In this document: positions 1 to 19,779 of the stretch, piece by piece
Layout: each line of letters opens with the position of its first letter
Position numbering within the stretch: the stretch's first letter is position 1
Source: an uncultured bacterium
GTDB lineage: Bacteria > Schekmanbacteria > GWA2-38-11 > J061
Length of the DNA stretch: 23,694 nt
NCBI GenBank assembly: GCA_964549305.1
Contig: CAZJVM010000040.1
Location: 1 to 23,694, forward strand
Reading direction: 5' to 3'
Translations under genes and position numbers: made by a program
Notes under the pieces: generated by a model
Databases searched by the model: none
What the model was told of the DNA's origin: nothing
Seen by the model: the letters and a program-made list of their open reading frames with translations, nothing else

Positions 1-3000
1 ACATAGACATATGGGTTCAATGTCTGTGGTAAATATGGAGTGGCGATTACCGGGTCGGGGGAGAGGTATCTGCCGTTGTCCGGGTCATAGTATCTTGCTC
101 CATTGTAGAAAAAACCGCTTTCCTCATCATACCACTGTCCGGGGAATCTGAAATTATTTTCAACCGTAGTACCCTGCTCGCTGTAAATCCTGCCGAAGGG
201 ATAATATTCTGCCTGCCATGAAACATTCCCGCTCTCATCTGTCATCATCACGGGACGTCCCAAATGGTCATTGTGGTAGAAGTAAACCACCTCTGCCGGC
301 GCTGAATAACTTCCCATTATCTTTGCCGTAAAATTAAATGAATGTGAACCGGGGTCATGAAATTCCCAATGAATAATATTTTTTCCGCCTTTTGCGATTT
401 TTCCGTAATACCAGAAAGGTTTTCCCGAAACATTACCGTCCGGATTGAAAGCAATGACTGACGCGTCGGATATTCCGGTAACCCGTGCATCGACATCATA
501 TATATCAAGCGTTGAGGTTTTGTTGGTAATTTCAACATCTGCGGATAAAATTTTCCTTATGCCGTCCCACGACGCAACTCCTAAAACTGTTACCTTCGGT
601 TCAACATCTGCTTTGAAAGATTTCCCTTTTCGTCTCTTTTTTCTCTTTTGTTTTTTTATCCTTAACTTTGGCTTTCCGTGTTTCATCTTGAACTTAATTT
701 TATATGCGCCAAGAAGAATGTGCTTTTTGCGATGCTTTGTCTTCCCGCCTTTCACTTTGCGGTAACTTCCCGCGGAAGCTTCGCTTTGGGGCATTACAAC
801 GCCAATCCTCTCATCTCCGGTATAAACAAAATCTGCCGCGCAATTTCCGTTTCTGTCGATTACTGAAATCAATCTTCCCTCAAGGTCATAGAGATAATTT
901 TGCCAATTTCCTTCCCGAATCTTTTTATATCTTTTACCATAAAAGTCATATTCATAGGATATATTTTTATTATTATTTGTAATGGTGCTGTTAATTAGGC
1001 CATCTTTGTTATAAGTCAAGTTGACACTGCCGTTTGAAATAAGATTGCCTTCGGAATTGTAGGAGTAGTTTTTTGATATGTCGCCTGAGATTGAAGCTAA
1101 TTGGTTATCAACATAGTTGTAATTCCTTTCAACGCCGTTTAAAACTGATTTGATTCGATTTCCGACTCCGTCGTAGGTGAAAGATATATTTCCGAAATGT
1201 CCCGATGAAGATGTAATTCTGGCGAATGAATCATAGCCGAATGATAAATTTCGTGATGCATCAAGCGTATCTGTTATGAATGTTACATTGCCGTCAACAT
1301 CTCTTGCATAGTCTAAGTCTATAATTTTAATTGCGCCCTGTTTCTCGATTTTATGGGAGTCAATCCGGTATTGCTTGTCATATCCAAATGTTTCAGTGAT
1401 TCCGGAAGGTAAAACGATTTTTCTTATTTTATCATCTGCCCCGCGTGAAATTGTCACATCAACTGTCGTGCCATCGGTTTTTTTAATCTTCACGCCATGG
1501 GGATAACTCCAAGTGTCCGCATAATCATATAAAACTTCAATGCCTGAAGGATAGTCCATTTTAGTTATCCTGCCGTTTTTGTCATATCCATAAATGACAG
1601 AATAGCTTTTGCCATCGGTAGTTGTATCTTCCTGTGTAAGATTTCCATAAACATCATAGTGATAACGCACTGTGAAATTTCCATCTGATATGGAAGTTAG
1701 TTGTCCCTTCCCGAAACTCGATTCCGGTTCATCGTATGCAAGCGTCAATGATTTGTTTTCGTTCACATAGTTGATATTTGTAAGTCGTCCTAACGAATCA
1801 TAAGAGAATTGACGTGTCCTGCTGAATGGGTCTTTTACAGTCGCGGGGAAACTCAAAGCATCATAGGAAAAGAGTTTCTCTCCACGCTGAGCGGAACTTA
1901 CTCTTAAAAGCCGTCCAAGGTCATCATATTCGAATTCTGCCGCATTGCCTGAAGCGTCGGTTATCGACTTTATGTTGTCTGAATTGTCATAGAGATAATT
2001 TGTGGCTAGGTTTGCGCCCTGAGGAAACTCAGTAATTTTCTTGACGCGAAGAAGCGAGTCATAAGAGAATTCCATAGAGAATTCGCCTTCAGGAAGAGAC
2101 GCCTGACGAAACTTATTAAGCAGAAGAGAATTTGCCATTTCGATTTTTATATTTGTATCCGACGCATCGGGATAAACATATTTTAGCTCATTGAGATATC
2201 CGTAGAAATATCCTTCATGAAGGACTGTTGTCCCGTTCTCATCTCCTTCTTTAATTTCAAGCGATGTGACATTTCTTTCTGCATCGTATGTATAGAGAAG
2301 AGTTTCTAAAATATCCGATTGAAGTCCGGCGCCTTTCAGGAGTTTTGCCATACTTAGGTCGCCTAAATCATTATAGAAATATTCGATGATATTTCCCTCA
2401 GGCATTTTTTCATAATGCAGGACTCCGCCCGGATAATAGCCGTATTGCCGTAGCGCGGAATCCTTTTTTACCTGAGTGATATTTCCCGCGGCATCATATG
2501 AAAGCTCAATGAAAGTGACATCGGGAAATGTGATTTTCCCCGCATTGCCGTAGATGTCATAATTGTCATAGGTATATTTATTTCCGAGAGCATCGGTAAA
2601 TGATTTCAGTCTGTTTCTGTTCAGAGTGTCAGCATCGTCTGCCGCGTAATATTCAAATGAGGTAATATCGGATAAATCATCCCGTGGACCGTCAAGAGAA
2701 GTAATCCGTGAAAGTGCGTCATAAGAAACCGATGTTGTATATGTAAAGGGCACCGCATTCTTTTGAATGTCCCTTGTGTATCCTTTTAAAACAACATTCT
2801 TCAAAAGATTTCCGGGGTTTTCATTGTAGTTATTGTTTCCGTCATCGTCATAATCTAAGATTATTTCTCTGTATCCGTTTCCAAAAACGCTTTCACTTTT
2901 TGCGGAAAGGGTCTCCCCTGTATCGGTGTTGTAAGTGAGATAAACTGCCCTTTCATCACTGCTTCCGTTTGCGTAGCGTATGGTTTGAGGATGTCCCGCA

Positions 3001-4613
3001 TTGTCGAAATTTTCATAGGAAGTGGTGTTCCCGTAGGAATCTGTTTCTTCCGTTAACCTTCCAAAAATGTCATTTGTATATGAGAAGAAAGGCGAAGCGC
3101 AGGTTGTGCAGGTGTTGCCTGTAGTGTTTTTAAGCAATCCGGCGCGGTTAATGGATTCGTAATGAAGAAACGTAGAATTGCCTCTTGTATTGGTGAGTTT
3201 CGTGTACCACTCGGTGGGATGATATTCCAGCGACGAGAAGTGTTTGCCGTTGTCATCGGAAAATGACGAAACCCGGTCAGCGGTATCATAAATGTAATTA
3301 TGCACTCTGCCGTCTCTTGCAGTGGTCCTGGTAATGTTGAGGTTGTCATTTGCATCATTGTATTCAAATTGCGCTGTGGAGTTGTCCGGATAGGATACGG
3401 AAGTCAATCTGCCCGTAGAATCATAACTGAATGAGACAAGAGTTGCCGTCTGCGAATCTTCGACTATTGATGTTATTCTGCCATTTGAATCGTAATTGAG
3501 CGAATATTGTCTGTTAAGCGTGTCATAAATTTTTACGAGTTTGCCACTGCCGTCATATTCAAGCTCGATATGGTTTCCTTCGGGGCTGATTAAGGTAAGA
3601 AGCGCGCCGCTTTCTGAAAAAATCATCGCTTTGCCGTTATCGTATGTAAGCGAATATGTGGTGTCGCCGTTATCGTGAAAACTCATCGAAGAAGGTTTTC
3701 CCGATTGCAGAAAATTTGCCGAAGATTCCGATTCTTTGTAAAAGTATGAACTCCTTCCCTTTCCATTGACAAAGCGTATGACATTGCCCGACTGAAGAAA
3801 ATCAATATGTGACGAATAGTTATGAGTCCACCCCCAACCGATTGGAGTGCCTCTTGTGAGTGAATCATAACTTGCAGAAAGTGCGGGAGACGATGCGCCC
3901 TTTCTGCCGATTTCCATCAACTCGCTGAATATGGACGACGCGGCGGATTTATTCACAGGTACGCTGATTCCGTTTGCTATTGATGGTATTTGCTGTCTTG
4001 AGGAATAACTTCGCCTAAATTCAAGGTCAATGTTAATTCCCTTTATTTTGAAATCGGTTTCCTCGAGAGTCATTTCACCGTTTAGTATGTTTATCGGTTC
4101 GCCAACTTCTTTTCGCTTTGATGAGCAGGTGTCCGTATCGTCGGGCGGAATGGAAAGATAAGTGCCGCATCCTTCCGTTGCCATATTCAGGACTTTCGTG
4201 ACAGAGTCGGAGTTATAGGATGCCGAAGGACTGCAGAGGTGGCACTCAATTGACAGTAGGCGCGCCGAAATGAGGACTTCAACCACATTCGTGTCCCCGT
4301 GAAGAAGTGTTGTGTATGAAGTAGCATCTTTTTGAAGGTGAATATGATTGCCCCCTCCATTTGAGCAGTTTCTCAAAGTGGTAATAGTGAGATCATATCC
4401 CAAAAGACGGTCAATGTTGTTGTTGCAGCAGCTTGTCCAGGAACTGTAACGCTGCCAGCTTATATGAAGTTTTTTTTGCGCATTTCCGTATATATCAAAA
4501 TCCGGAGTTACAGATACTGATAAACCGCTTGGAGGAGGGTCAGATGCAAAAACCGGTGAGGATATAAAACAAATTAACAGGACTGCTGATAATAAAAAAA
4601 GCTTTTTGTTCAT
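1..4613 (-). CDS. Rhs/YD-repeat protein with Rhs-associated core and N-terminal signal peptide (3' end beyond window; at least 1537 aa)
   Basis: Manually translated minus frame from ATG at 4613 (AGGAG RBS just upstream) has no stop down to base 3. It begins MNKKLFLLSAVLLICFISSPVFA and contains VGEPINILNGEM...PIGWGWTHNY (DUF6531-like), many YDxxGRL-type repeats (YDSTGRL, YDDLGRL, YDSLGRL, YDLEGRL), SLDGPRDDLSDITSFEYY, and core motifs YFYHNDHLGRP, FRFPGQWYDEESG, YNGARYYDP, GRYLSPDP, LNPYVY. Confidence 0.95.
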   Translation of the reverse strand, partial: MNKKLFLLSAVLLICFISSPVFASDPPPSGLSVSVTPDFDIYGNAQKKLHISWQRYSSWTSCCNNNIDRLLGYDLTITTLRNCSNGGGNHIHLQKDATSYTTLLHGDTNVVEVLISARLLSIECHLCSPSASYNSDSVTKVLNMATEGCGTYLSIPPDDTDTCSSKRKEVGEPINILNGEMTLEETDFKIKGINIDLEFRRSYSSRQQIPSIANGISVPVNKSAASSIFSELMEIGRKGASSPALSASYDSLTRGTPIGWGWTHNYSSHIDFLQSGNVIRFVNGKGRSSYFYKESESSANFLQSGKPSSMSFHDNGDTTYSLTYDNGKAMIFSESGALLTLISPEGNHIELEYDGSGKLVKIYDTLNRQYSLNYDSNGRITSIVEDSQTATLVSFSYDSTGRLTSVSYPDNSTAQFEYNDANDNLNITRTTARDGRVHNYIYDTADRVSSFSDDNGKHFSSLEYHPTEWYTKLTNTRGNSTFLHYESINRAGLLKNTTGNTCTTCASPFFSYTNDIFGRLTEETDSYGNTTSYENFDNAGHPQTIRYANGSSDERAVYLTYNTDTGETLSAKSESVFGNGYREIILDYDDDGNNNYNENPGNLLKNVVLKGYTRDIQKNAVPFTYTTSVSYDALSRITSLDGPRDDLSDITSFEYYAADDADTLNRNRLKSFTDALGNKYTYDNYDIYGNAGKITFPDVTFIELSYDAAGNITQVKKDSALRQYGYYPGGVLHYEKMPEGNIIEYFYNDLGDLSMAKLLKGAGLQSDILETLLYTYDAERNVTSLEIKEGDENGTTVLHEGYFYGYLNELKYVYPDASDTNIKIEMANSLLLNKFRQASLPEGEFSMEFSYDSLLRVKKITEFPQGANLATNYLYDNSDNIKSITDASGNAAEFEYDDLGRLLRVSSAQRGEKLFSYDALSFPATVKDPFSRTRQFSYDSLGRLTNINYVNENKSLTLAYDEPESSFGKGQLTSISDGNFTVRYHYDVYGNLTQEDTTTDGKSYSVIYGYDKNGRITKMDYPSGIEVLYDYADTWSYPHGVKIKKTDGTTVDVTISRGADDKIRKIVLPSGITETFGYDKQYRIDSHKIEKQGAIKIIDLDYARDVDGNVTFITDTLDASRNLSFGYDSFARITSSSGHFGNISFTYDGVGNRIKSVLNGVERNYNYVDNQLASISGDISKNYSYNSEGNLISNGSVNLTYNKDGLINSTITNNNKNISYEYDFYGKRYKKIREGNWQNYLYDLEGRLISVIDRNGNCAADFVYTGDERIGVVMPQSEASAGSYRKVKGGKTKHRKKHILLGAYKIKFKMKHGKPKLRIKKQKRKKRRKGKSFKADVEPKVTVLGVASWDGIRKILSADVEITNKTSTLDIYDVDARVTGISDASVIAFNPDGNVSGKPFWYYGKIAKGGKNIIHWEFHDPGSHSFNFTAKIMGSYSAPAEVVYFYHNDHLGRPVMMTDESGNVSWQAEYYPFGRIYSEQGTTVENNFRFPGQWYDEESGFFYNGARYYDPDNGRYLSPDPVIATPYLPQTLNPYVY

Positions 4614-4784: not shown

Positions 4785-5420
4785 CTAAGCGGTTTTTTTC
4801 CCTGTACTGATTAAAGTCATCAGTATGAGCATAATCCCCCAGAAAAGGGTGACGAAAGGGGAAAGAATGAGGGCAAGAATCAGAAGTAGTATGAGTTTAA
4901 TTCCTTTGAGAAGTGAACCAAAAAATATATTTATCAGGGTCGTGTACAGGAATTTGTAACGGTAAAATTTCTTAGGAAGGTTATAAAAATCATTGTTGCC
5001 GTCAATTCCGATTACTTCAGCGCGCTTTCCTTTGAATGCCGCAATTTCAAAAAAAAGATTCGGGCGGTCGATTTTGTCAGCATAAAATATCAAAATGCGT
5101 GTAAAATCCGTTCCTTTTAAAAGTTTAAAAAGCGCTCTGTTTGAATCGAATATTTTGATTGTGTGATTTTCTGAAAGATTTTTCACAGTTTCATTGTCAG
5201 AAAAGGGCGCCGGCTCATTTTTTTTGCTTTTTAGATAAAGGGAGATTTCAGATTCATTAATGCCTCCGTCTTTGACCAGATATTCTTTTATCCTTCCCAT
5301 ATCTGAAGGTCTGAGTATGAAAGCAATTTTCCCGGTGGTTTTTTTTTCAATATCTGAAATACCCCCGATTTTCTCCGCCAGTTGCGACGGTTTGATTATT
5401 TCCTTAAGCGAATCAAACAT
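4785..5420 (-). CDS. Hypothetical protein with C-terminal hydrophobic membrane segment(s)
   Basis: 211-aa ORF, co-oriented with and downstream of the glycan operon. Soluble N-terminal ~160 aa followed by ILLLILALILSPFVTLFWGIMLILMTLIS. No family recognised. Confidence 0.7.
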   Translation of the reverse strand: MFDSLKEIIKPSQLAEKIGGISDIEKKTTGKIAFILRPSDMGRIKEYLVKDGGINESEISLYLKSKKNEPAPFSDNETVKNLSENHTIKIFDSNRALFKLLKGTDFTRILIFYADKIDRPNLFFEIAAFKGKRAEVIGIDGNNDFYNLPKKFYRYKFLYTTLINIFFGSLLKGIKLILLLILALILSPFVTLFWGIMLILMTLISTGKKTA

Positions 5421-5515: not shown

Positions 5516-7891
5516 TTATTCAATAATGTTCCGCTTATGAAGTTTTTTGATAAGCCAACCGAGAGGCGCGGTCAATTTCCATCTTTTTGAATTGTAAATC
5601 GCCTTAAGCTGTTTTTCCTGCTCTTCTGATTTTGTTTTTACTTTGTGCAGTTCTTGTTCCACTTCGGCAAGACGGATTTCGGTTTTTGAAAGATTGTGCA
5701 GGAGTGAAACTACCGCGACTTTCTCTTCTGATTTTTTTTCTTCCCTTTCCATATACCCCACCATTAAAGCATAGTTTAAAGCGCATCTGTAGATTATTTT
5801 CAGCTTCTTCGCGTCGATGCTTTCCTTCGATGACTCATATTCCTCTATTGCTTCGATTATTTCATCATATGCCTGCCTCGAGAATATTTTTTCTTTATCA
5901 AGTTCGCTATATGAATGGGCAAGGTCTACGCCCAGGCGTTTTACTTCGGAATTATACCATCCAACCATTCTTTGTCTTTCGGCAAATTCCCTGAATGTGA
6001 TGGAATGCTTATGGTATAGGGTAAAATCTTTTCTGAAGTGAATTACCAGTCCCGCTTTGGCTAATCTGTGCCCAAGCTCGATGTCTTCCCACATTGCGTG
6101 CTTGAAAATTTCATTATTGAAAAGCCCGTAGCTTGCAGTCATAATCCGTTTAAATGAGATATTGCTGCTCCAGAAGTATTCATAACCGAGATGGTCAATA
6201 TCCCTGCGGGTAAGCCCTTCGTATCCGAATTGCTGAGCTCCCTCCTTCGTTATATATTCCATCAAAGGCGTTATCTCGATGTCCTTATCCCATTCCACCA
6301 TCCCCAGACAAGCATCTCCTGCGGCGGGGTATTCAACGTGGAAGCGCGCGTGTTTTTCAATGAAATCGGAATCGTACATAATCATATCGTCACCCACGGA
6401 GAGAATGATTTTTCCCCTCGCATTTTCGAGCGCTCTGTTTCGCGCCGACGCGGGACCGTTGTGGTTGTTGGTAAAAAAAGTGAAATTGACAGGCGTTTTT
6501 TTTGAATAGTTTCCGAGAAACTCTTTCGTGCCGTCCGATGAACCGTCATCTACCACGAGAAGCTCGAAATCCTCTTTGGGAAATGTCTGTTCTTCGATTT
6601 TTGCCAAACTTTCCTTAAGGATTTCCAGTCTGTTGTAAGTGGGCATTATAAGGGTTATTTTGTATTTATCTTTTCCTCCTTCGGGAATGAAATCTGAAAC
6701 AATGGGTTTAGTTTTTGATTCCCGGGGTTTTTCTATATCAAGAAGGCCAAGCAGTGTGGGAAAGATGTCAGGCATTTCAATGACATCATCAATATTTTTC
6801 CGAATGCCAAGCCCGCCAATAATGAATTTTGCCCAGTTAGCTTTTACTTCAGGAAGATAACCGTGCAGACCTTTGCAGGGGTTTGTATGCTGAAAGAAGT
6901 TTGGGAAAATGCCTATCCCTTCGTTGACAACAAAAATCAGTTCGCCGAACCTCTTGTCAGGGAAGTTGAAATGCAATTCATCAATATGGGAAGCGGAAAG
7001 TATTTTTCCGTCGGATATTTTTAAGAGCAGGGATGTTATAGTGTTTCGCGCATTGTCATTGAAAAACCAAAAACGCGCCTGCGTGGAATCAAGAAAATAA
7101 AGATAGTCCTTTGTTAAAACAAGACCGGTTTCCGCGAGCATCTTTTCGATATCTATATGCTTCCTGACTTCTACCTGTCCGTGGTCACCGAAGATTAATG
7201 ATTTTACGTCGCTGAATCGGGAGTTTATTGTTTTGAATACGTCGCTTACGGCCAAATCGATTTTTTTGAGCGTTTTTTTCTGCACATCCGAATGAGGACC
7301 TCCTTCGTGTCCCGCCCAGTCAAGTTCGGAAAAATGAAGATAGATAAAGTCTTCATCACCCTGAAGTTTTGAATCAAGCTCGCCGAGAATTTCCGGAGCA
7401 GTACCGGGACTGCCGGGATATCCTATCCAGAGCCATTTTTTGTCATTCATCCTGAGAAGGTCAAATAATGTCTTATGCTTGCCTAACGCGCCCTCATCGC
7501 TTGTTTTGATTTTTTCGGAGAAGTCGAAATACTTCAGAAGATTAAGAGGAATTTCAGCGCATCCTCCGTGATGCTTTACGAGAGTGTATCCTCTCCTTCC
7601 GGCTTCTTTTCTTAACTTATCGGAGATGATAGTTCTGTCGCCTGAGCTAATATTAATATTGCGAAAGGGCGAATCGACTGAATTGTAGAAATACATATTT
7701 CCCACTCCGCACTCATCGGGGTGAAGTCCGGCAAAGAACGCGGGGCGAAGTTCAAAGGCGAATGTTTCCCTGACCGCGCCGTCAATGTTTAATTTTGCAA
7801 GGGAGTGCAGGAAGGGCGAATCATCGGGATTGACATAGTCATATCGGAATCCGTCAATGAGTATGAGAAGAACGGTTTTTTTCATTATCAT
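5516..7891 (-). CDS. Fusion: alkaline phosphatase/nucleotide pyrophosphatase-phosphodiesterase superfamily domain + GT2 glycosyltransferase + C-terminal coiled coil
   Basis: N-terminal domain has LIDGFRYDY, ELDWAGH, FGDHG and GLHGY (AP-superfamily metal ligands). Middle has IMPTYNR, VVDDGSSDGT, GPASARN, VGDD and WEDIELG (GT2). C-terminus is E/K/Q-rich heptads ending YNSKRWKLTAPL. Confidence 0.88.
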   Translation of the reverse strand: MIMKKTVLLILIDGFRYDYVNPDDSPFLHSLAKLNIDGAVRETFAFELRPAFFAGLHPDECGVGNMYFYNSVDSPFRNINISSGDRTIISDKLRKEAGRRGYTLVKHHGGCAEIPLNLLKYFDFSEKIKTSDEGALGKHKTLFDLLRMNDKKWLWIGYPGSPGTAPEILGELDSKLQGDEDFIYLHFSELDWAGHEGGPHSDVQKKTLKKIDLAVSDVFKTINSRFSDVKSLIFGDHGQVEVRKHIDIEKMLAETGLVLTKDYLYFLDSTQARFWFFNDNARNTITSLLLKISDGKILSASHIDELHFNFPDKRFGELIFVVNEGIGIFPNFFQHTNPCKGLHGYLPEVKANWAKFIIGGLGIRKNIDDVIEMPDIFPTLLGLLDIEKPRESKTKPIVSDFIPEGGKDKYKITLIMPTYNRLEILKESLAKIEEQTFPKEDFELLVVDDGSSDGTKEFLGNYSKKTPVNFTFFTNNHNGPASARNRALENARGKIILSVGDDMIMYDSDFIEKHARFHVEYPAAGDACLGMVEWDKDIEITPLMEYITKEGAQQFGYEGLTRRDIDHLGYEYFWSSNISFKRIMTASYGLFNNEIFKHAMWEDIELGHRLAKAGLVIHFRKDFTLYHKHSITFREFAERQRMVGWYNSEVKRLGVDLAHSYSELDKEKIFSRQAYDEIIEAIEEYESSKESIDAKKLKIIYRCALNYALMVGYMEREEKKSEEKVAVVSLLHNLSKTEIRLAEVEQELHKVKTKSEEQEKQLKAIYNSKRWKLTAPLGWLIKKLHKRNIIE

Positions 7892-7893
7892 TT

Positions 7894-8934
7894 TTATTTG
7901 TGAATTTGATGCCAGTGCCGCGCTGTCTTTTCCCTTAAAGTTTCCCAGTTAAAACTTTTCGCGTCTTCTCCGGTAATTTCCTCAAATTCACCGCGCGCCA
8001 ATGAGAGCAATTTATAGCGCATAGGCGGTTGAGCGGATTTACAGAGCAATAACAGAATTTCAACTCTTTCAATGGGGATATTCGTTGCTGATTTTTTTGT
8101 CTTATCATTTGTCAATTTTTTAAAAATACGTTTAACGGGATTAAAAAATCCTGGCGAAATAAATCCGGCTATTGCATTGATTAGTTCGCAGACCGTCTTT
8201 TCCCAATAATTTAAAGGGTCGGAGGGAGGTGGTGAAGAAGGATCGAGCTTAAATCGTGTTGCCGTGTCGTTTAATGAGATCAGCTCTTTTTCTTTCATAA
8301 ATTCCGATTCAAAAATCTTTTTTCTTTGCCTTAAACTGTGGTGATATATGTGCTTTTTCATTAGAAGTGCCTCAACACAGGAAGAGACCACTTTGCCTGT
8401 CTGATTAATAAGGAAAAAGCTCTCCTCTTCATTCATCTTCCTGTTCCTGAAGTCTTCCGAATATGCTTCTATGGCGCAAATCATCCTGTTTAAAAGAAGT
8501 GTTTTCGGAGCGTTTTTTTCGAGTCTTCCTTTTTTAAACGCCGGCATTGAATCAAGAAGTTTTTCTCCCCAAAGATGTTTTCCCCCATATTTAAGATCGT
8601 AATAAAACTGTGTTGCGGGCAGAACGGAAAGAGATGAATGCCTTATGGGAATAATATCAACAAGCCTTATGTCAATTTTGTCTGCCAGCTTTTTTTCAAG
8701 TTTTACAAAGTCTGCGCACTTCTCATCATTGGCTATGACAAAAATGTCATAATCGTTCACAGGGCGTATTTTCCCATTCCTTAAAATCACGCTTCCTTCG
8801 CCTCTCCCGAAACCCCCGCCGAGAATTATTTCTCGCACCTGAGTGATTTTCGACAACTCTTCGATTATCAGCTTAAGATGTGATTCGATTGTTTCATCGA
8901 TTTCCGGGTTTTCTAAAACCGTATAGATGCCCAA
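7894..8934 (-). CDS. Pol-beta-superfamily nucleotidyltransferase-like protein with helical C-terminal domain
   Basis: IILGGGFGRGEG followed by NDYDIFVI and a later LVDII strand fits the hG[GS]...DhD...D catalytic pattern. TTG start with GGAGA upstream. Confidence 0.72.
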   Translation of the reverse strand: MGIYTVLENPEIDETIESHLKLIIEELSKITQVREIILGGGFGRGEGSVILRNGKIRPVNDYDIFVIANDEKCADFVKLEKKLADKIDIRLVDIIPIRHSSLSVLPATQFYYDLKYGGKHLWGEKLLDSMPAFKKGRLEKNAPKTLLLNRMICAIEAYSEDFRNRKMNEEESFFLINQTGKVVSSCVEALLMKKHIYHHSLRQRKKIFESEFMKEKELISLNDTATRFKLDPSSPPPSDPLNYWEKTVCELINAIAGFISPGFFNPVKRIFKKLTNDKTKKSATNIPIERVEILLLLCKSAQPPMRYKLLSLARGEFEEITGEDAKSFNWETLREKTARHWHQIHK

Positions 8935-8949
8935 TTTAAAGACAATCTC

Positions 8950-10332
8950 CTATTTTTTCCCAAACAGTCCGGAAATTAGCTTAGCCACTTTGCCGGATTT
9001 TTCTTTTTTTGCGCTTTCCCCCGTTATTTGAAGAGAGGGAATCAGATTACTGAATTCCGCGATTAAAGTTTCCCTCGTTTCAATCAGTTTTTCATCGGTA
9101 AAGTCCGTCAGGTTAATCGTAAGCTCAGTGGCATCCTTATCAAGAGCGCAAATGTATTCTTCTTCATCTTTTATCAGTCCCTTTTGCCTGCACTCCCCGT
9201 AAAGCGCTGTACCCGGATAGGGGACAGGGAAAAAAGGGATATTGAACAATTTGTTTCTTCTGAAAAACTTCCTGTTTTCTTCAATTGTTTTTTCATCTTC
9301 ACCGGGCATTCCGATTATAAACGTTCCCGTAACAATTAGTCCCGCGTCCCTGCTCATTTGTATCGTGTTTTCTATATTTTCTATCTTTTGATGTTTTTTC
9401 ATTCTGTCGAGCATTTTCTGGCTTCCCGATTCTATGCCGTAGCCAATCCATCTGCATCCTGCCTCATACATTAGCCCGAGTGTTTCCTTGTCGGCGAAAT
9501 CAGTCCTTCCTATGCATCTCCACGTGATTTGTATCTTTTCGCTGATTATTTTTGAACAAAGCGCCTTAACCTTTTCAAGGTCCGCGTTGAATATTTCATC
9601 GAGAAAATCTATGTGGCCGATTCCGAACAGTTCCACTGCCGATTTGATTTCTTCCATAATGTCATCAACCTTCCTGTGGCGTATCTTTCTTCCGAAATTC
9701 CTGTAGCAGAATGTGCATTCAAAGGGGCATCCCCTGCTTGTTATCATTGTAATGCTCGGAGTCTTTACGTTAACGAGATAGGGAGTTTTCGTGTACGATT
9801 CCATATCGAATAAATCCCAGCAGGGAAGCGGAATTGAGTCAATGTCAACGGGTTTTGATTCAATAGGGTAATGAATTTTTCCCTCCTTTTTAACCATAAG
9901 ATTCGCAATGGATGATATTTCTTTGCCTTCATTGAGCACATCATATAACCTCGCGGCGACATCTTCTCCTTCGCCGACGCATACTGCGTCAAAATCGGAA
10001 TTTTCAAGAAGAAGTTCTCCGGCAGTGCAGATGCTTCCTCCGGCAACGATTATGGCGCGGGGATTGTGTTTTCTGATTGTTGCCGCAAGCCATTTGGCGT
10101 ACTTATAGGTCGTAACCATTCCGCTGAAAGCGACGAGGTCGAATTTGTTACCTCTTGCCTTAAAAAACGATGAAACGCTCTCTTCGCTCTGTTTGCCAGG
10201 TCCTCCGTCAAGCACTTCAACTGTACACCCTTTGTTCTTCAGTACCGCCCCTATGTATGCCAGTCCCATCGGATACGCTCCCTGCGCGGGGCAATTTGTT
10301 TTAAGAGGAGAATTTATCAGGAGAACATTCAT
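8950..10332 (-). CDS. Cobalamin-binding radical SAM protein (class B methyltransferase-like)
   Basis: N-terminal B12-binding-like domain (YPMGLAYIGAVL, VAGG, VGEGE), SRGCPFECTFC CxxxCxxC motif, GIESGSQ, FIIGMPGE, PYPGT. Confidence 0.9.
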   Translation of the reverse strand: MNVLLINSPLKTNCPAQGAYPMGLAYIGAVLKNKGCTVEVLDGGPGKQSEESVSSFFKARGNKFDLVAFSGMVTTYKYAKWLAATIRKHNPRAIIVAGGSICTAGELLLENSDFDAVCVGEGEDVAARLYDVLNEGKEISSIANLMVKKEGKIHYPIESKPVDIDSIPLPCWDLFDMESYTKTPYLVNVKTPSITMITSRGCPFECTFCYRNFGRKIRHRKVDDIMEEIKSAVELFGIGHIDFLDEIFNADLEKVKALCSKIISEKIQITWRCIGRTDFADKETLGLMYEAGCRWIGYGIESGSQKMLDRMKKHQKIENIENTIQMSRDAGLIVTGTFIIGMPGEDEKTIEENRKFFRRNKLFNIPFFPVPYPGTALYGECRQKGLIKDEEEYICALDKDATELTINLTDFTDEKLIETRETLIAEFSNLIPSLQITGESAKKEKSGKVAKLISGLFGKK

Positions 10333-10346
10333 TGTTTTATGAAAGT

Positions 10347-11603
10347 TTATGGTTTTTCAATATTTACGCTAACCGATGAATCCAGATTTGTAATACCCGA
10401 TACGGTTTCCTCTGAGACAACTTCAAAGATGAGATAGTCCGATATCCAATCCAGTCGTTTTATGCCATTTTCCGTCGATTGGCTAACTGCAACGGTTACC
10501 GTATATTTTCCCGCTACGAGCGTCATCTTCTGAGAAAAGCATATTTCAAGAATGCTTTCCTTCTTAACTTCGGGGATATCAATTCCTTTCCATCGGGTAT
10601 TAGTCATATAAACATCTATGCCCGTGTTGTTTCTTACTGTAATTCCCGCAAGAATATCCTTTAAATCTTTGAGGAACCGGACCTTCACTATTATTTTGGT
10701 ATCTTCCATTGATGTTATCGCGTTGGTTTTATCTCCTTTGCCGTTTAACAGCGAGACATCGGTTATTTTGGCTTCCTGAGTGCCGTATTTCTGACTTTTC
10801 CCGTTTTCCCTTGCTTTTGCGAGTTCAGATGGCGAAAAGTCACTCTTTGATGTTTCCGCTTCAATCTGTCTGAAGATAATGGCATTGTATAGATCAATGA
10901 TTTCCGTGGGATTTCCCCTGTCTATAATTTCACCGTTTTGAAGAAGTATGACTTCGTGGCAGTTTCTTTTAATTGCATTCATATCGTGCGAAACAAAAAT
11001 AATAGTCATATTTCTGTTTTGAAATTCTTCGAATTTTCTAAGGCACTTTTGGAAAAACTTGGCATCTCCCACGGCAAGAACTTCGTCAATGAGGAGAATA
11101 TCGGGGTTGCAGTGAATTGCCGTTGCGAATCCAAGGCGCACATACATTCCCGATGAGTAGTATTTTACAGGCATATCGATGAAACTTTCAAGCTCCGAAA
11201 ACTCGATAATCGATGAGATATTCCTGTCTATGTCATCCCTTTTCATTCCCATAATCGAGCCGTTAAGATAGATGTTTTCCCTGCCCGAAAATTCCGGATG
11301 AAATCCTGCGCCAAGCTCCAGAAGTACGCCCATTTTCCCTTTAATTTCGATTGAACCCGACGAGGGTTTCGTAATTCCCGCAAGAAGCTTGAGGATGGTA
11401 CTTTTGCCCGCGCCGTTAGGTCCTATTATTCCGAGAGTCTTTCCCTTTTCCACTTCAAAGGATATTCCTTTCAGCGCGCAGAAAGATTGTGAAGAAGCCA
11501 AGTCGTCTTTTTTGCCGAAGAGGGATGAAATCGAACTTCTCAAACTCCTGTTCTGCCTGGAATACTCTTTTGTAACGCCGTTGAATTTAATAGCTTTTTC
11601 CAT
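10347..11603 (-). CDS. wzt: Polysaccharide ABC exporter ATP-binding subunit with C-terminal Wzt_C (carbohydrate-binding) domain
   Basis: Walker A GPNGAGKST, LLELGAGFHPE, YSSGM signature, LLIDEVLAVGD, VSH, plus a ~150-aa beta-rich C-terminal extension starting near YGTQEAKITDV. Confidence 0.92.
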   Translation of the reverse strand: MEKAIKFNGVTKEYSRQNRSLRSSISSLFGKKDDLASSQSFCALKGISFEVEKGKTLGIIGPNGAGKSTILKLLAGITKPSSGSIEIKGKMGVLLELGAGFHPEFSGRENIYLNGSIMGMKRDDIDRNISSIIEFSELESFIDMPVKYYSSGMYVRLGFATAIHCNPDILLIDEVLAVGDAKFFQKCLRKFEEFQNRNMTIIFVSHDMNAIKRNCHEVILLQNGEIIDRGNPTEIIDLYNAIIFRQIEAETSKSDFSPSELAKARENGKSQKYGTQEAKITDVSLLNGKGDKTNAITSMEDTKIIVKVRFLKDLKDILAGITVRNNTGIDVYMTNTRWKGIDIPEVKKESILEICFSQKMTLVAGKYTVTVAVSQSTENGIKRLDWISDYLIFEVVSEETVSGITNLDSSVSVNIEKP

Positions 11604-11616
11604 CGTTCCTTTTTTA

Positions 11617-12399
11617 CTAAATTATATCCGCAAACTTCATCTCGACTTTTTTGAAATAAAGATATGAAAGCAGAAACACTATTAGCGAAATAACTCCCGA
11701 CAAAGCCGTATATTTCATTGAAGGCATAGTGCCGTAGAGAAGGCAATGCCTGTATCCCTCGATTATTCCCGCAACGGGATTAAGCATATATATGTCCCTG
11801 TATTGCGCCGGAACAATGCTTACGGGATATACTACGGGAGAAAGAAACATCCATATCTGAAGCATTATAGGGACAAGATAACCGATATCGCGTTTAAAAA
11901 CATTTGCCGCCGAAAGGAAAAACGACACCCCTGTAATTAAGATAAACTGAATAACAAGAAAGAGGGGCATAAGCAGAATATAGGGCGAAACCCTGATATG
12001 GTAAAAAAGCGTCATCACGAAGCAGAGAAGCGCGGCAATGATAAAATCCACGAAAGCCGATGATATAACGGACAGCGGAAGAAGTTCGCGGGGAAAATAT
12101 ATCTTTGTCACGAGATTCACATTCTGCACGATGCTCGTGATACCTTTCGTCACCGCCCCTGAAAAGAATGCCCACACAACAAGTCCGCTGTAAGCAAAAA
12201 GAGGGTAGGGGATATTGTTCGTGTCAACCTTTGCAAAAAGTGAAAAGACTATCGTGAAGACTACCATCATCGCTAAGGGTTGAAAGAGGGCCCATCCCAC
12301 ACCGATTACAGTCTGCTTGTAGCGCGCCCTGATATCCTTGACGATAAGGTTGTAAAGCAATTCCCTGTAAGCAAAGAGATTGGATATGTTGGTAATCAT
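11617..12399 (-). CDS. wzm: Polysaccharide ABC exporter permease (ABC-2 type)
   Basis: DIRARYKQTVIGVGW, KIYFPRE, FLSPVVYP, LNP motifs and about six hydrophobic segments. ATG at 12399 preferred over the track's TTG at 12420; start is uncertain. Confidence 0.9.
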   Translation of the reverse strand: MITNISNLFAYRELLYNLIVKDIRARYKQTVIGVGWALFQPLAMMVVFTIVFSLFAKVDTNNIPYPLFAYSGLVVWAFFSGAVTKGITSIVQNVNLVTKIYFPRELLPLSVISSAFVDFIIAALLCFVMTLFYHIRVSPYILLMPLFLVIQFILITGVSFFLSAANVFKRDIGYLVPIMLQIWMFLSPVVYPVSIVPAQYRDIYMLNPVAGIIEGYRHCLLYGTMPSMKYTALSGVISLIVFLLSYLYFKKVEMKFADII

Positions 12400-12408
12400 T
12401 ATGCGGAT

Positions 12409-12417
12409 ATTATAGCA
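12409..12417 (-). promoter_or_regulatory. Putative extended -10 element (TGcTATAAT) upstream of wzm
   Basis: Minus strand reads TGC TATAAT, then 9 nt, then ATG at 12399. No clear -35 or Shine-Dalgarno. Confidence 0.4.
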
Positions 12418-12462
12418 CAAGGGGAGTGAGTATAGAAATATTCAGAAGCGGTTGCGCCGAAA

Positions 12463-13578: not shown

Positions 13579-13611
13579 ATTTTTTATTCCTTTATTTCAT
13601 TTTATTTCAGA

Positions 13612-13640
13612 AGTTTAGCACTCTCATAATCGGAGGTCAA
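13612..13640 (-). promoter_or_regulatory. Putative sigma70 promoter for the leftward glycan operon
   Basis: Minus strand TTGACC-N17-TAAACT with a TG extended -10, about 33 nt upstream of the ATG at 13578. Confidence 0.6.
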
Positions 13641-13772
13641 GAAAGTGAAAATTAGAAAACTTTTTCATTTTTGCCTGTTGGGAAAAAATTAAAAAGATTG
13701 ACGGTGCAGGCGTGTCAAAATTATTCTATAATCAGTAAAGTTCATTTATTTTAACAAAAGCGGTGCGGATAA

Positions 13773-19610: not shown

Positions 19611-19648
19611 TTTATAATCTCCTATGAAAAATATGAAGTATGCAATCG

Positions 19649-19678
19649 AGTATAAATGAGGTTTTTTGCCAATGTCAA
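19649..19678 (-). promoter_or_regulatory. Putative sigma70 promoter of smc
   Basis: Minus strand TTGACA-N18-TATACT, 38 nt upstream of the TTG at 19610. Confidence 0.6.
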
Positions 19679-19779
19679 GAAGGAATGCCATATGTTGGTG
19701 TTATTTTGCGGATACAATACATTATATTGTGGTTTTGAGGATTTTGGCTTTTTACGGCAGAACCGGGAAAAATCTCTTT

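What the first reader, a model, noticed from the sequence alone, without database searches (positions are those of the whole stretch)
612..761. Extreme polybasic 50-aa tract inserted just before the Rhs core
Seen: minus-strand translation gives RKVKGGKTKHRKKHILLGAYKIKFKMKHGKPKLRIKKQKRKKRRKGKSFK, with 26 K/R, 3 H and no D/E in 50 residues. It includes an alternating KIKFKMKH strand and a KKQKRKKRRK cluster. It is in frame between FVYTGDERIGVV and YFYHNDHLG. Established: in typical Rhs proteins these two motifs are joined by a short turn, and the YD repeats form a shell around the C-terminal cargo. Inference: the tract loops out of (or into) the shell. It could act as a built-in cell-penetrating or NLS-like peptide, or as a binder of anionic surfaces or nucleic acid. 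That would give a Sec-exported Rhs without PAAR/VgrG its own targeting or uptake module. I do not know a described Rhs with this architecture, but could not search.
Basis: partly seen in the sequence, partly recalled or inferred. Interest (0 to 1): 0.78.

Follow-up and report, generated by a model that had tools for sequence, protein, structure and literature searches.

The report
Lysine-rich add-on domain inside Rhs toxin
The lysine/arginine-rich stretch is real, but it is the front part of a roughly 170-residue folded add-on domain spliced into a loop of a bacterial Rhs toxin shell, a loop where many related toxins carry other add-on domains. It most likely acts as a sticky handle for negatively charged cell surfaces.

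Summary
The tract is confirmed at window 612-761, minus strand (Rhs residues 1285-1334): 26 K/R, 3 H and no D/E in 50 residues, which is not a chance composition. The description of its position is incomplete. It does not abut the YFYHNDHLG motif, because 109 further residues follow it.

The real unit is a roughly 165-170-residue insertion (aa 1274-1443). It has four parts:
- a disordered basic leader;
- a confidently predicted beta-hairpin;
- a disordered polybasic linker;
- a roughly 100-residue beta-sandwich.

This module has no Pfam family. It recurs in secreted non-Rhs proteins: lipoproteins, S8 subtilases and one PT-HINT/AHH toxin.

Only one other Rhs protein, P0002 (50% identical overall), has the module. 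It keeps the linker almost unchanged (10 of 13 residues identical) but not the lysines of the first hairpin strand.

The insertion site is a hot spot. Of 114 Rhs proteins I could anchor on both sides, 30 carry more than 30 extra residues there. These include dockerin, Golvesin_C and Ig-like arrays of up to about 950 residues, so the site must face outward.

Best reading: an external, positively charged accessory binding module on a Sec-type Rhs toxin. That it binds anionic surfaces is inferred, not shown. I found no support for a cell-penetrating or NLS role. This is a new variant of a known kind, of moderate interest.

The parts
3..4613 (-). Rhs/YD-repeat toxin gene, 1537 aa, running off the window at its 3' end. 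The toxin domain and any immunity gene are not in the window.
   Evidence: ORF list and translation. Pfam RHS_repeat 1.5e-49, DUF6531 and PF03527. TIGR01643 and TIGR03696. The AF2 model of aa 338-1537 matches solved Rhs shells at Foldseek E 7e-52.
4545..4613 (-). Signal-peptide-like N-terminus (aa 1-23, ending VFA|SD)
   Evidence: Read by eye. A Kyte-Doolittle 12-residue window gives 3.12. No signal-peptide predictor was available.
783..1016 (-). Last regular YD hairpins before the insertion (aa 1200-1277)
   Evidence: Matches columns 1-78 of the short-loop site profile, E 3.6e-12.
285..794 (-). Whole inserted module (aa 1274-1443, about 165-170 residues)
   Evidence: 165 extra residues relative to the site profile. 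In PDB 8h8a about 32 residues span the same interval. phmmer finds the module in P0002 and in non-Rhs proteins. It has no Pfam family.
720..794 (-). Flexible leader (aa 1274-1298). Its second half, RKVKGGKTKHRKK, is the first part of the reported tract.
   Evidence: pLDDT is about 50 in the stand-alone model and below 50 for aa 1278-1296 in the 1200-residue model.
651..719 (-). Beta-hairpin of the module (aa 1299-1321): ILLGAYKIKFKMK, a turn, then KPKLRIKK. K alternates with hydrophobic residues.
   Evidence: DSSP strands 26-38 and 41-48 at pLDDT of about 90. The same strands appear at pLDDT 80-85 in context. The hairpin aligns with those of P0125, P0134, P0127 and P0126.
612..650 (-). Polybasic linker (aa 1322-1334, QKRKKRRKGKSFK): 9 K/R in 13 residues
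   Evidence: pLDDT 59 and below 50. 10 of 13 residues are identical in P0002, and 8 of the 9 K/R are kept. Of 15 family members that have a linker, 12 have no D/E in it and 6 have 4 or more K/R. There is a weak 9-bp tandem repeat at 621-649, score 35.
306..611 (-). Beta-sandwich core of the module (aa 1335-1436)
   Evidence: pLDDT 93-97 over most of the stand-alone model (76 and 77 in the end blocks). 57 of 102 residues are identical in P0002. phmmer E-values run from 3.6e-17 to 5e-4 against non-Rhs proteins.
177..287 (-). PF03527 'RHS protein' motif region, starting at VYFYHNDHLG (aa 1443-1479)
   Evidence: Pfam 8.6e-14. Aligns to the same region of 13 solved Rhs, Tc and teneurin chains.
3..206 (-). 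Rhs repeat-associated core domain TIGR03696 (aa 1470-1537), cut by the window end at model position 62 of 76
   Evidence: NCBIfam 56.6 bits against a cut-off of 32.5.

Best explanation
The 50-residue polybasic tract is the N-terminal part of a domain insertion of about 170 residues. That part comprises a flexible leader, a beta-hairpin and a flexible linker.

An uncharacterised beta-sandwich module was spliced into the surface loop that separates the last ordinary YD hairpin from the conserved C-terminal Rhs core. Elsewhere this module is the first domain of secreted lipoproteins or a C-terminal appendage of subtilases. In this family of mostly signal-peptide-bearing environmental Rhs toxins, that loop is a recurrent socket for accessory domains: dockerin, Golvesin_C, Ig-like arrays and a hydrophobic membrane-like segment.

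The module therefore sits on the outside of the toxin-filled shell, near the pole that is closed by the C-terminal core. In the window's protein and its one close relative, the module's linker has become extremely rich in K/R. In the window's protein alone, the solvent-facing side of the hairpin and the leader have too. This puts a charge of roughly +26 on two flexible tethers and one flat face.

Inferred mechanism: the positively charged appendage captures polyanionic envelope or matrix polymers, such as LPS, teichoic or uronic-acid polysaccharides, acidic phospholipid, or possibly extracellular DNA. This would hold the Sec-exported shell on a cell surface, either the target's or the producer's. 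That role is played by PAAR/VgrG in T6SS Rhs toxins and by N-terminal wall-binding domains in WapA.

Shown: the anatomy, the homology, the hot spot, and the conservation of the linker. Inferred: the outward location, the ligand class and the targeting role.
For: Anatomy:
- The tract coordinates and composition are confirmed.
- The insert is 165 residues longer than a short-loop site profile. About 32 residues span the same interval in PDB 8h8a.

Folded module:
- The AF2 model of aa 1274-1443 has mean pLDDT 84.6 and pTM 0.75. The hairpin scores about 90, the core 93-97 over most of its length, the leader about 50 and the linker 59.
- The same pattern appears in the 1200-residue model, which has pLDDT 82.4.

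Homology:
- phmmer over 1.84 billion representatives gave 18 hits at E<=1e-3. P0002 is the only Rhs among them.
- The rest include S8 subtilases, FG-GAP and BNR/Ycf48-like proteins, and a CBM2 + PT-HINT + AHH toxin.
- The hairpin and linker align across members.
- 7 of 15 non-Rhs members have a lipobox-like motif by regex, with the module as the first domain in most of these.

Constraint:
- Against P0002 the module core is 57/102 identical and the linker 10/13 identical, compared with 50% identity overall.
- The linker has no D/E in 12 of 15 members, and 4 or more K/R in 6 of 15.

Hot spot:
- Of 121 Rhs proteins, 73 have 10 or fewer extra residues at the site, 11 have 11-30, 10 have 31-100, 20 have more than 100, and 7 could not be anchored.
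- Pfam places the following directly between the last YD anchor and PF03527: Dockerin_1 (P0029, P0041, P0119), Golvesin_C (P0016 x5, P0037, P0049, P0054, P0057), and Big_1/bMG3/CarboxypepD_reg/PPC arrays (P0024, P0036, P0051).

Outward location:
- Inserts of 945-950 residues (5 proteins) and 559 residues cannot fit a cavity of about 25,000-37,000 cubic angstroms. That figure comes from passages of bioRxiv 10.1101/2024.02.26.582050.
- The 170-residue module together with a toxin of about 160 residues would not fit either. This uses a residue volume I recall from memory.

Charge logic:
- The shell without the insert has 110 K/R against 162 D/E, so the appendage is the only strongly basic element.
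- Among the 121 Rhs proteins, only P0001 and P0025 have a 30-residue window with 14 or more K/R. In both the window lies in the insert at this same site.

Binding-domain flavour (leads only):
- The ESM Atlas rows below 0.9 are CBM_2, CBM_3, CBM49 and CHB_HEX.
Against: - No binding was tested, so the ligand class is pure inference.
- The tools return no coordinates, so inside versus outside could not be measured on the models (one search shows no structure files). The outward placement rests on size arguments and on the kinds of domain found at the same site in other proteins.
- The fold search of the module gave no convincing structural relative (TMq 0.25-0.44). The CBM resemblance is below the Atlas reliability threshold.
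- The lysines of the first hairpin strand and much of the leader are not conserved in P0002. Part of the extreme charge may therefore be recent and unselected.
- A weak 9-bp repeat underlies the linker.
- Several family members have neutral or acidic equivalents of the tract, for example P0128 with 0 K/R and 8 D/E, and P0137 with 2 and 8. Basicity is therefore not a defining property of the module.
- Published T6SS Rhs shells are negatively charged outside. The tract could simply lie on its own shell.
- How a Sec-exported protein would leave the periplasm, if the organism is diderm, is unknown.
Confidence: 0.55

Rival explanations
1. Intramolecular electrostatic docking. The basic leader, hairpin face and linker lie on the acidic outer wall of the protein's own YD shell. 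They fix the inserted module to the shell, or act as a latch near the C-terminal plug, rather than binding anything foreign.
For: The shell without the insert is net acidic, with 110 K/R against 162 D/E. Solved T6SS Rhs shells are described as negatively charged inside and outside (passages of bioRxiv 10.1101/2024.02.26.582050). The insert sits immediately before the region that spirals inward and seals the shell (passage of PMC8765631).
Against: The leader and linker are predicted with pLDDT below 50 even in the model that contains the shell, so no fixed contact is predicted. The same module with a semi-basic linker occurs in proteins that have no YD shell.
Confidence: 0.15
2. Largely neutral low-complexity expansion. 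Purine-rich AAA/AAG/AGA codons expanded by slippage in tolerant, flexible linkers of an inserted domain, and the extreme charge has no specific role.
For: There is a weak 9-bp tandem repeat at 621-649 (3.1 copies, 76% matches, score 35). AT skew reaches -0.5 over 601-750. The hairpin and leader lysines are not shared with P0002: both proteins have K/R at 3 of 9 and 3 of 8 positions respectively. The flexible parts have low pLDDT.
Against: The linker is the best-conserved stretch of the tract, at 10 of 13 identical between proteins that are 50% identical overall. There are no acidic residues in 50 positions. The linker lacks D/E in 12 of 15 family members. K and R use six different codons, not one repeated unit.
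Confidence: 0.15
3. Multibasic protease-sensitive linker. The K/R run is a cleavage site for trypsin-like, omptin-like or subtilisin/kexin-like proteases. Cutting there nicks the chain next to the C-terminal plug, and either sheds the module or primes toxin release.
For: Runs of paired basic residues lie in a segment predicted to be flexible. They lie 110-120 residues upstream of the core that seals the shell. The module family is also found fused to S8 subtilases, although there it lacks the linker.
Against: There is no evidence of processing. The subtilase association concerns the sandwich core only. Rhs toxin release is known to depend on the protein's own aspartyl autoprotease, not on external cuts.
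Confidence: 0.08
4. The tract is a free polybasic loop acting as a built-in cell-penetrating or NLS-like peptide that gives the toxin its own uptake or nuclear-import signal.
For: The composition resembles arginine/lysine-rich import and uptake peptides. This resemblance is from my recall and was not tested. The protein lacks PAAR and VgrG.
Against: About half of the tract is a structured hairpin belonging to a folded domain. The tract sits on a shell of about 170 kDa, not on the toxin domain that would have to enter a cell. The toxin is cleaved off and encapsulated in this family. The one close relative is annotated as from a Candidatus Schekmanbacteria MAG. That group is mentioned in papers on sediments, wetlands and sponges, which I saw as a search listing only. 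Nothing points to a eukaryotic nucleus as the target.
Confidence: 0.05
5. The module and tract lie inside the cocoon, with the basic segments lining the negatively charged lumen or pairing with the toxin.
For: The lumen of solved Rhs shells is uniformly negative. The insertion borders the segment that spirals inward.
Against: Volume: about 170 folded residues plus a toxin domain would exceed a cavity of about 25,000 cubic angstroms (residue volume from my recall). The same site holds 559-950-residue arrays, dockerins and a hydrophobic segment in other Rhs proteins. The module is an autonomous extracellular domain elsewhere.
Confidence: 0.03

Closest known systems
WapA-type Sec-exported Rhs toxins of Gram-positive bacteria (B. 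subtilis and S. suis WapA)
   Same: An N-terminal signal peptide instead of PAAR/VgrG, a YD shell, a C-terminal polymorphic toxin, and an extra domain that attaches the shell to a cell envelope (passages of PMC12704120).
   Different: In WapA the attachment domain (LysM or wall-binding repeats) is N-terminal to the shell. Here no such Pfam domain is found. The accessory module is instead inserted inside the shell sequence, just before PF03527, and carries a polybasic tether.
T6SS-delivered Rhs effectors with solved structures (RhsA 7q97, Rhs1/Tre23 7pq5, RhsP 8h8a, Tse5 8cp6, Tse15 8uy4, S. bongori and A. mimigardefordensis Rhs 8qja-8qjd)
   Same: YD repeats, PF03527/TIGR03696 core and cocoon fold. 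The site corresponds to the loop just before residue 1316 of S. bongori Rhs. The authors list loop 1312-1315 as variable in length between species (the index mapping is mine).
   Different: These proteins are PAAR- or VgrG-linked. Their outside is described as smooth and lacking decorations. About 32 residues span the interval where this protein has about 198.
Decorated YD shells: Tc toxin BC components and teneurins
   Same: YD shells that carry extra folded domains outside the cocoon. The model matches them by Foldseek at E 1e-40 to 1e-31. The preprint contrasts BC 'decorations' with the smooth T6SS Rhs.
   Different: From my recall, their decorations (beta-propeller, FN-plug, NHL, ABD) sit at other positions of the chain. 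I did not test this here. None is known to me to be a polybasic beta-sandwich placed before the core.
Other Rhs proteins with accessory domains at the same pre-core loop (P0016, P0024, P0029, P0037, P0041, P0051 and others; unnamed metagenomic proteins)
   Same: The insertion point is the same, between the last YD hairpin and YYYHNDHLG. The inserted domains are of extracellular binding types: Dockerin_1, Golvesin_C, Big_1, bMG3, CarboxypepD_reg and PPC. P0025 also ends its insert with a K-rich run.
   Different: The inserted domains are unrelated to this one. Only P0002 shares this module.
Amphipathic cationic beta-hairpins that bind LPS (Limulus anti-LPS factor loop, tachyplesin-type peptides). 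This comparison is recalled from memory and was not tested.
   Same: Basic and hydrophobic residues alternate on a two-stranded hairpin (KIKFKMK / KLRIKK).
   Different: Here the hydrophobic face is predicted to pack on a beta-sandwich rather than being free to enter a membrane. There is no sequence relationship.

Membership tests
Rhs / YD-repeat polymorphic toxin | Multiple YD (RHS) repeats | tested here: met
   PF05593 at 1.5e-49 with 7 stretches. TIGR01643 at 7.3e-31.
Rhs / YD-repeat polymorphic toxin | Conserved C-terminal core (PF03527 plus TIGR03696) | tested here: met
   PF03527 scores 51.5 bits against a cut-off of 27.9, at aa 1443-1479. TIGR03696 scores 56.6 bits against 32.5, at aa 1470-1537, truncated by the window end.
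Rhs / YD-repeat polymorphic toxin | PxxxxDPxGL-type autoproteolysis motif followed by a variable toxin domain and an immunity gene | not testable with these tools
   The ORF runs off the window 14 residues before the position where P0002 has ...LALTDPEG. No close relative was found in genome contigs.
Rhs / YD-repeat polymorphic toxin | Beta-cocoon fold | tested here: met
   The AF2 model of aa 338-1537 has pLDDT 82.4. Foldseek E-values to 8qja, 8uy4, 8qjc, 8cp6, 7pq5 and 7q97 run from 7e-52 to 2e-44. This is a prediction, not an experiment.
Enterobacterial RHS element core protein (NF041261 equivalog) | Whole-protein score above the curated cut-off | tested here: not met
   156.7 bits against a cut-off of 2000.
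T6SS-delivered Rhs effector | PAAR, prePAAR or VgrG domain in the protein, or T6SS genes nearby | tested here: not met
   No such Pfam family was found in P0001 or in the 14 other ORFs scanned in the window. The window covers only 23.7 kb, so distant loci remain unchecked.
WapA-like Sec-exported Rhs | N-terminal Sec signal peptide | tested here: inconclusive
   A typical n-h-c pattern ending VFA|SD was read by eye, and the hydrophobicity heuristic gives 3.12. No dedicated predictor was available.
WapA-like Sec-exported Rhs | N-terminal cell-wall-binding domain (LysM or wall-binding repeats) | tested here: not met
   There is no such Pfam match. Residues 24-170 have no family.
Unnamed beta-sandwich module (P0122-P0138 family) | Significant sequence similarity across the sandwich core, with the conserved G.ASWD ... 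LSGNVT.TN ... PYW.YG ... W.F.DP..F.F pattern | tested here: met
   phmmer E-values of 1.6e-36 (P0002) and 3.6e-17 to 5.2e-4 for the other hits. There is no Pfam family.
Carbohydrate-binding module (CBM2/CBM3/CBM49-like) | Sequence or fold match to a CBM family | tested here: inconclusive
   No Pfam match. The Atlas CBM rows score 0.79-0.83, below the 0.9 level. The Foldseek CBM hit 3ndy_E has TMq 0.28.
Cell-penetrating / NLS peptide | Demonstrated uptake or importin-dependent import | not testable with these tools
   This can be judged here from composition only. It needs an experiment.

The most novel reading that the evidence does not exclude
The loop just before the Rhs core is a general display socket. 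Secretion-system-independent Rhs toxins plug interchangeable targeting domains into it. In this protein the plugged-in module carries a polycationic tether. That tether adsorbs the toxin-filled shell to anionic envelopes. Because it is wired directly into the strand that starts the inward-spiralling plug, ligand capture or cleavage of the tether would be mechanically coupled to opening of the C-terminal seal and release of the toxin. This would amount to a self-contained receptor-binding and trigger device for an Rhs toxin.
Probability: 0.1. Interest if true: 0.75.

Novelty: new variant of a known kind. Interest (0 to 1): 0.45.

Why it matters
How Rhs toxins that lack a T6SS spike find and enter target cells is an open question. 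The WapA paper states that translocation 'remains enigmatic'.

Published structural work on T6SS Rhs stresses a smooth, undecorated shell. The data here point the other way for a large, mostly signal-peptide-bearing environmental branch. About a quarter of the Rhs relatives sampled carry accessory domains at one precise loop. The window's protein is the most highly charged example.

If the appendage is a targeting device, swapping it would be a second axis of Rhs polymorphism besides the toxin tip. The module would also give a simple handle for testing how such shells dock on cells.

If the charge is only low-complexity drift, the finding reduces to one more domain insertion.

Tried and rejected
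1. Structural relatives of the module. Foldseek against PDB gave only generic beta-sandwich hits: mu-homology domains at TMq 0.25-0.29 with rmsd 14-22, WSSV VP37 at TMq 0.44, and one CBM at TMq 0.28. I assigned no family.
2. ESM Atlas. The top clusters are unnamed (0.93 and 0.91). The CBM rows score 0.79-0.83 and are leads only.
3. Inside or outside by modelling. Two AF2 models were made, but the tools return no coordinates, so the geometry could not be measured.
4. More Rhs proteins with this module:
   - The word-indexed search of residues 1230-1537 found only P0002 covering the insert. There were 394 hits at E<=1e-3, of which 120 were listed.
   - The 'shorter' search of residues 1262-1460 found none among 1411 candidates.
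   - The genome-contig scan found 10 distant Rhs loci at 22-28% identity. It found neither the window's own genome nor that of P0002.
5. Whether decorated Rhs proteins are preferentially Sec-type. A crude hydrophobicity test gave signal-peptide-like N-termini in 17 of 27 insert-bearing proteins and 48 of 77 short-loop proteins that start with M. There is no association.
6. First anchoring attempts. BLAST of one P0001 segment mis-anchored on upstream YD repeats. I replaced it with a profile of 24 short-loop sequences. A first parsing rule missed P0016 and others, and was corrected.
7. Pfam on the C-terminal 159 residues of P0002 at E<=10 gave no family.
8. Literature. 'Rhs' + 'polybasic' returned 27 papers, and none of the 10 listed concerns an Rhs tract, judging by title. 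In the search for 'Rhs', 'YD-repeat', 'dockerin' and 'polymorphic toxin', none of the 12 listed papers contains 'dockerin'. 'Rhs', 'YD repeat', 'cocoon' and 'inserted domain' gave no paper containing 'inserted domain'.
9. P0129 and P0132 were left out of alignment A1. Each matched in 9 short repetitive stretches.
10. Opposite-strand ORFs over the tract (445..765 +, 678..866 +, 704..982 +) were judged mechanical. They lie inside a gene that is homologous end to end with P0002.
Full report
**Observation**

The window holds a minus-strand ORF at 3..4613 of 1537 residues that runs off the window at its 3' end. The quoted 50 residues are aa 1285-1334, which is window 612-761. They contain 20 K, 6 R, 3 H and no D or E. 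The rest of the protein is 8.9% K/R. The binomial chance of such a window is 7.7e-15, or 1.1e-11 after allowing for 1488 windows.

FVYTGDERIGVV ends at aa 1273 and YFYHNDHLG begins at aa 1444. Eleven residues precede the tract and 109 follow it before the core motif.

**The host protein**

Pfam finds RHS_repeat (1.5e-49), DUF6531 (aa 171-208) and PF03527 (aa 1443-1479). NCBIfam finds YD_repeat_2x and TIGR03696 (aa 1470-1537, cut by the window end). The enterobacterial RHS_core equivalog is far below its cut-off, at 156.7 against 2000 bits.

The N-terminus looks like a Sec signal peptide by eye and by a hydrophobicity heuristic. No PAAR or VgrG domain is present in this protein or in the 14 other ORFs I scanned. 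Those ORFs encode glycan-synthesis and export proteins, SMC, a NadB-like protein, RibD and others.

An AF2 model of aa 338-1537 has pLDDT 82.4 and pTM 0.75. It matches solved Rhs shells at Foldseek E 7e-52 to 2e-44, and teneurins and Tc BC components at 1e-40 to 1e-31.

**Size of the insertion**

Against PDB 8h8a, query residues 1182-1245 align with chain residues 952-1018, and query 1443-1523 align with 1050-1129. About 32 residues in the solved protein therefore correspond to about 198 here.

I built a profile from 24 Rhs relatives with a short loop. It places 165 extra residues in the window's protein and 160 in P0002.

**What the insert is**

I searched aa 1274-1443 with phmmer against 1.84 billion representatives. 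This gave 18 hits at E<=1e-3, and the only Rhs among them is P0002, at 1.6e-36. The others are non-Rhs secreted proteins:
- S8 subtilases with the module at the C-terminus (P0122, P0124, P0128);
- an FG-GAP protein (P0123);
- BNR/Ycf48-like proteins (P0127, P0131, P0134);
- a protein with a weak cohesin match (P0125);
- two large proteins with no family (P0126, P0130);
- a protein with CarboxypepD_reg-type domains (P0133);
- a CBM2 + TIG + PT-HINT + AHH polymorphic toxin (P0137).

The insert itself matches no Pfam family. Seven of 15 non-Rhs members have a lipobox-like motif by regex. In most of those the module is the first domain after it.

**Anatomy of the tract**

In alignment A1 (17 sequences; P0129 and P0132 were dropped as repetitive matches) the tract resolves into three pieces.

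1. A variable leader, RKVKGGKTKHRKK.
2. A beta-hairpin, ILLGAYKIKFKMK-HG-KPKLRIKK. It aligns with YFLGAYKVHMNLAKGTMSFRQI of P0125 and with equivalent hairpins in P0134, P0127, P0126 and P0002.
3. A linker, QKRKKRRKGKSFK. It aligns with KKGKKISYKS (P0125), RTRRRNARQYSE (P0126) and KLNKRSSFKMYS (P0130).

AF2 on A1 gives pLDDT 84.6 and pTM 0.75. The hairpin strands are at 26-38 and 41-48 with pLDDT of about 90. The sandwich core scores 93-97 over most of its length, the leader about 50 and the linker 59.

The 1200-residue model repeats this pattern. The hairpin scores 80-85. The leader (aa 1278-1296) and the linker (aa 1326-1337) both score below 50.

The tract is therefore half structure and half flexible tether. 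It is not a free loop. The alternation of K with I/F/M and L/I implies one lysine-only face. That is an inference from the strand pattern, because no coordinates were available.

**Conservation**

P0002 is annotated by its source as coming from a Candidatus Schekmanbacteria MAG. It is 50% identical over 1527 aligned residues.

| Region | Identity to P0002 | K/R shared by both |
|---|---|---|
| Tract columns overall | P0002 has 18 K/R and 1 D/E in 45 residues | not separately counted |
| Linker | 10 of 13 | 8 of 9 |
| Hairpin | 8 of 24 | 3 of 9 |
| Sandwich core | 57 of 102 | not relevant |

Across the family, the linker lacks D/E in 12 of the 15 members that have one, and has 4 or more K/R in 6 of them. 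The whole tract equivalent ranges down to 0 K/R and 8 D/E in P0128.

The linker's basic character is therefore under constraint in the two Rhs proteins and recurs in the family. The extra lysines on the hairpin and leader are specific to the window's protein. The linker DNA shows only a weak 9-bp repeat (score 35). K and R are spread over six codons.

**The insertion site is a hot spot**

In the profile analysis of 121 Rhs proteins (the window's protein plus the 120 listed), the extra residues at the site were distributed as follows:

| Extra residues | Proteins |
|---|---|
| 10 or fewer | 73 |
| 11-30 | 11 |
| 31-100 | 10 |
| more than 100 | 20 |
| no confident upstream anchor | 7 |

Pfam places these domains directly between the last YD anchor and PF03527:
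- Dockerin_1 in P0029 (1389-1444), P0041 (1466-1513) and P0119;
- Golvesin_C in P0037, P0049, P0054 and P0057, and five copies in P0016 (a 559-residue insert);
- Big_1, bMG3, CarboxypepD_reg, DUF4198 and PPC arrays in P0024, P0036 and P0051.

Inserts of 945-950 residues occur in five proteins. P0011 has a hydrophobic, membrane-like segment there. P0025 ends its unrelated insert with KGKKEKKEKKGKKSKKTKK. It is the only other protein among the 121 with 14 or more K/R in a 30-residue window.

The sample was drawn from relatives of one protein, so the fraction should not be generalised.

**Inside or outside**

I could not measure this, because no coordinates are returned. The inference for outside rests on several points.
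- Passages of the preprint 10.1101/2024.02.26.582050 give the lumen as about 25,000 cubic angstroms, against about 37,000 for BC components. Inserts of 559-950 residues cannot be inside such a cavity.
- Dockerins and a membrane-like segment make sense only outside.
- The module is an autonomous extracellular domain in other proteins.
- About 170 residues plus a toxin domain would overfill the lumen. P0002 has 159 residues after its DPEG motif. The residue volume used here is from my recall.

The same preprint notes that the loop at S. bongori residues 1312-1315 differs in length among solved Rhs proteins. By my index mapping, that loop immediately precedes the residue aligned with aa 1443-1444 here.

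PMC8765631 states that the conserved C-terminal region spirals into the cocoon and seals it. The insert therefore sits at the boundary of the seal.

**Mechanism proposed**

I propose an external accessory module whose flexible leader and linker, together with one hairpin face, carry about +26 charge. The shell is otherwise acidic, with 110 K/R against 162 D/E. The appendage would most plausibly adsorb to polyanionic envelope or matrix polymers and hold a Sec-exported toxin shell at a cell surface.

This is analogous in role to the N-terminal wall-anchoring domains of WapA (passages of PMC12704120). The CBM-like Atlas leads and the co-occurrence of the module with CBM2 and TIG domains in P0137 fit a binding domain but do not prove one.

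Shown: the anatomy, the homology, the linker conservation and the hot spot. Inferred: the outward location, the ligand class and the targeting role.

Each is weighed in its own section.

**Comparison and novelty**

The protein is an Rhs-family member by repeats, core and predicted fold. The autoproteolysis motif and the toxin lie beyond the window. It is not a T6SS-type Rhs by domain content. It resembles WapA in its export signal but lacks WapA's wall-binding domain.

Decorated YD shells are known (Tc BC components and teneurins), and T6SS Rhs shells are described as undecorated. My searches found no paper describing accessory domains at the pre-core loop or a polybasic Rhs insert. That library omits most subscription journals.

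I rate this a new variant of a known kind. Interest is moderate. The tract itself is less exotic than first described. The insertion socket and its charged occupant are a testable lead on how Rhs toxins without a spike find cells.

**Limits**

- The gene is truncated in the window.
- The source genome was not found in genome contigs.
- The signal peptide and lipobox calls are heuristic.
- All structures are predictions.

Noticed in passing
P0002 residues 1546-1704 (relative of the window's Rhs; the equivalent part of the window's gene lies beyond the window end at position 3): After the DPEG motif the relative's toxin domain starts IWPEDIH... and has a later GMHALMDSTSPTH stretch. From my recall, this W/H...H..D...H spacing resembles zinc phospholipase C / P1-nuclease-type enzymes, which use the new N-terminal Trp as a metal ligand. 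Pfam gave no family even at E<=10.
   Followed up: partly
window 4785-5420 (-): A 211-residue ORF lies directly upstream of the Rhs gene. It has no Pfam or NCBIfam match and a strongly hydrophobic C-terminal third, consistent with two or three membrane spans. Its relation to the Rhs gene is unknown.
   Followed up: no
window 5516-15927: A surface-glycan gene cluster lies next to the Rhs gene. It contains a 791-residue fusion of a type I phosphodiesterase / alkaline-phosphatase-like domain with a GT2 glycosyltransferase, a nucleotidyltransferase-like ORF, a B12-binding radical SAM enzyme, Wzt (with Wzt_C) and Wzm ABC exporter genes, an NAD epimerase/dehydratase, a GT4 (Glycos_transf_4) enzyme and a GT1 enzyme.
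   Followed up: no
window 4104-4544 (-), Rhs residues 24-170: A cysteine-containing N-terminal region (including SWTSCCNNN) lies between the signal peptide and DUF6531. It is conserved in P0002 and has no family. It may be another accessory or plug domain.
   Followed up: no
P0011 residues about 1334-1407 (Rhs relative): At the same pre-core loop this Rhs protein has a segment of about 78 residues with two long hydrophobic stretches (GGFAFGFAIISLFGIVYL ... LLVFVLGLGCLGTAGVLGFLVL). This suggests a membrane-anchoring hairpin inserted in the shell.
   Followed up: no
P0025 residues 1419-1459 and P0044 insert (Rhs relatives): Two unrelated inserts at the same site also end in basic runs: KGKKEKKEKKGKKSKKTKK in P0025 and RRRTR...KARRMQKKRRLLAGLRARRH in P0044. 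This may be a convergent theme of basic tails on pre-core appendages.
   Followed up: partly
P0137 (1604 aa, non-Rhs): The same beta-sandwich module (residues 306-410) occurs in a different class of polymorphic toxin, with CBM_2, TIG, CarboxypepD_reg, PT-HINT and an AHH nuclease tip. The module is therefore shared between toxin delivery scaffolds.
   Followed up: partly
P0123, P0126, P0127, P0130, P0131, P0134, P0136: In these proteins the module is the first folded domain after a lipobox-like motif (...GC GG...) and a low-complexity spacer. This means it sits next to the membrane in predicted lipoproteins.
   Followed up: partly
window 15960-19691 (-): The SMC ORF matches TIGR02168 from model position 1 only at its residue 29. 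The listed ATG may therefore lie upstream of the true start.
   Followed up: no
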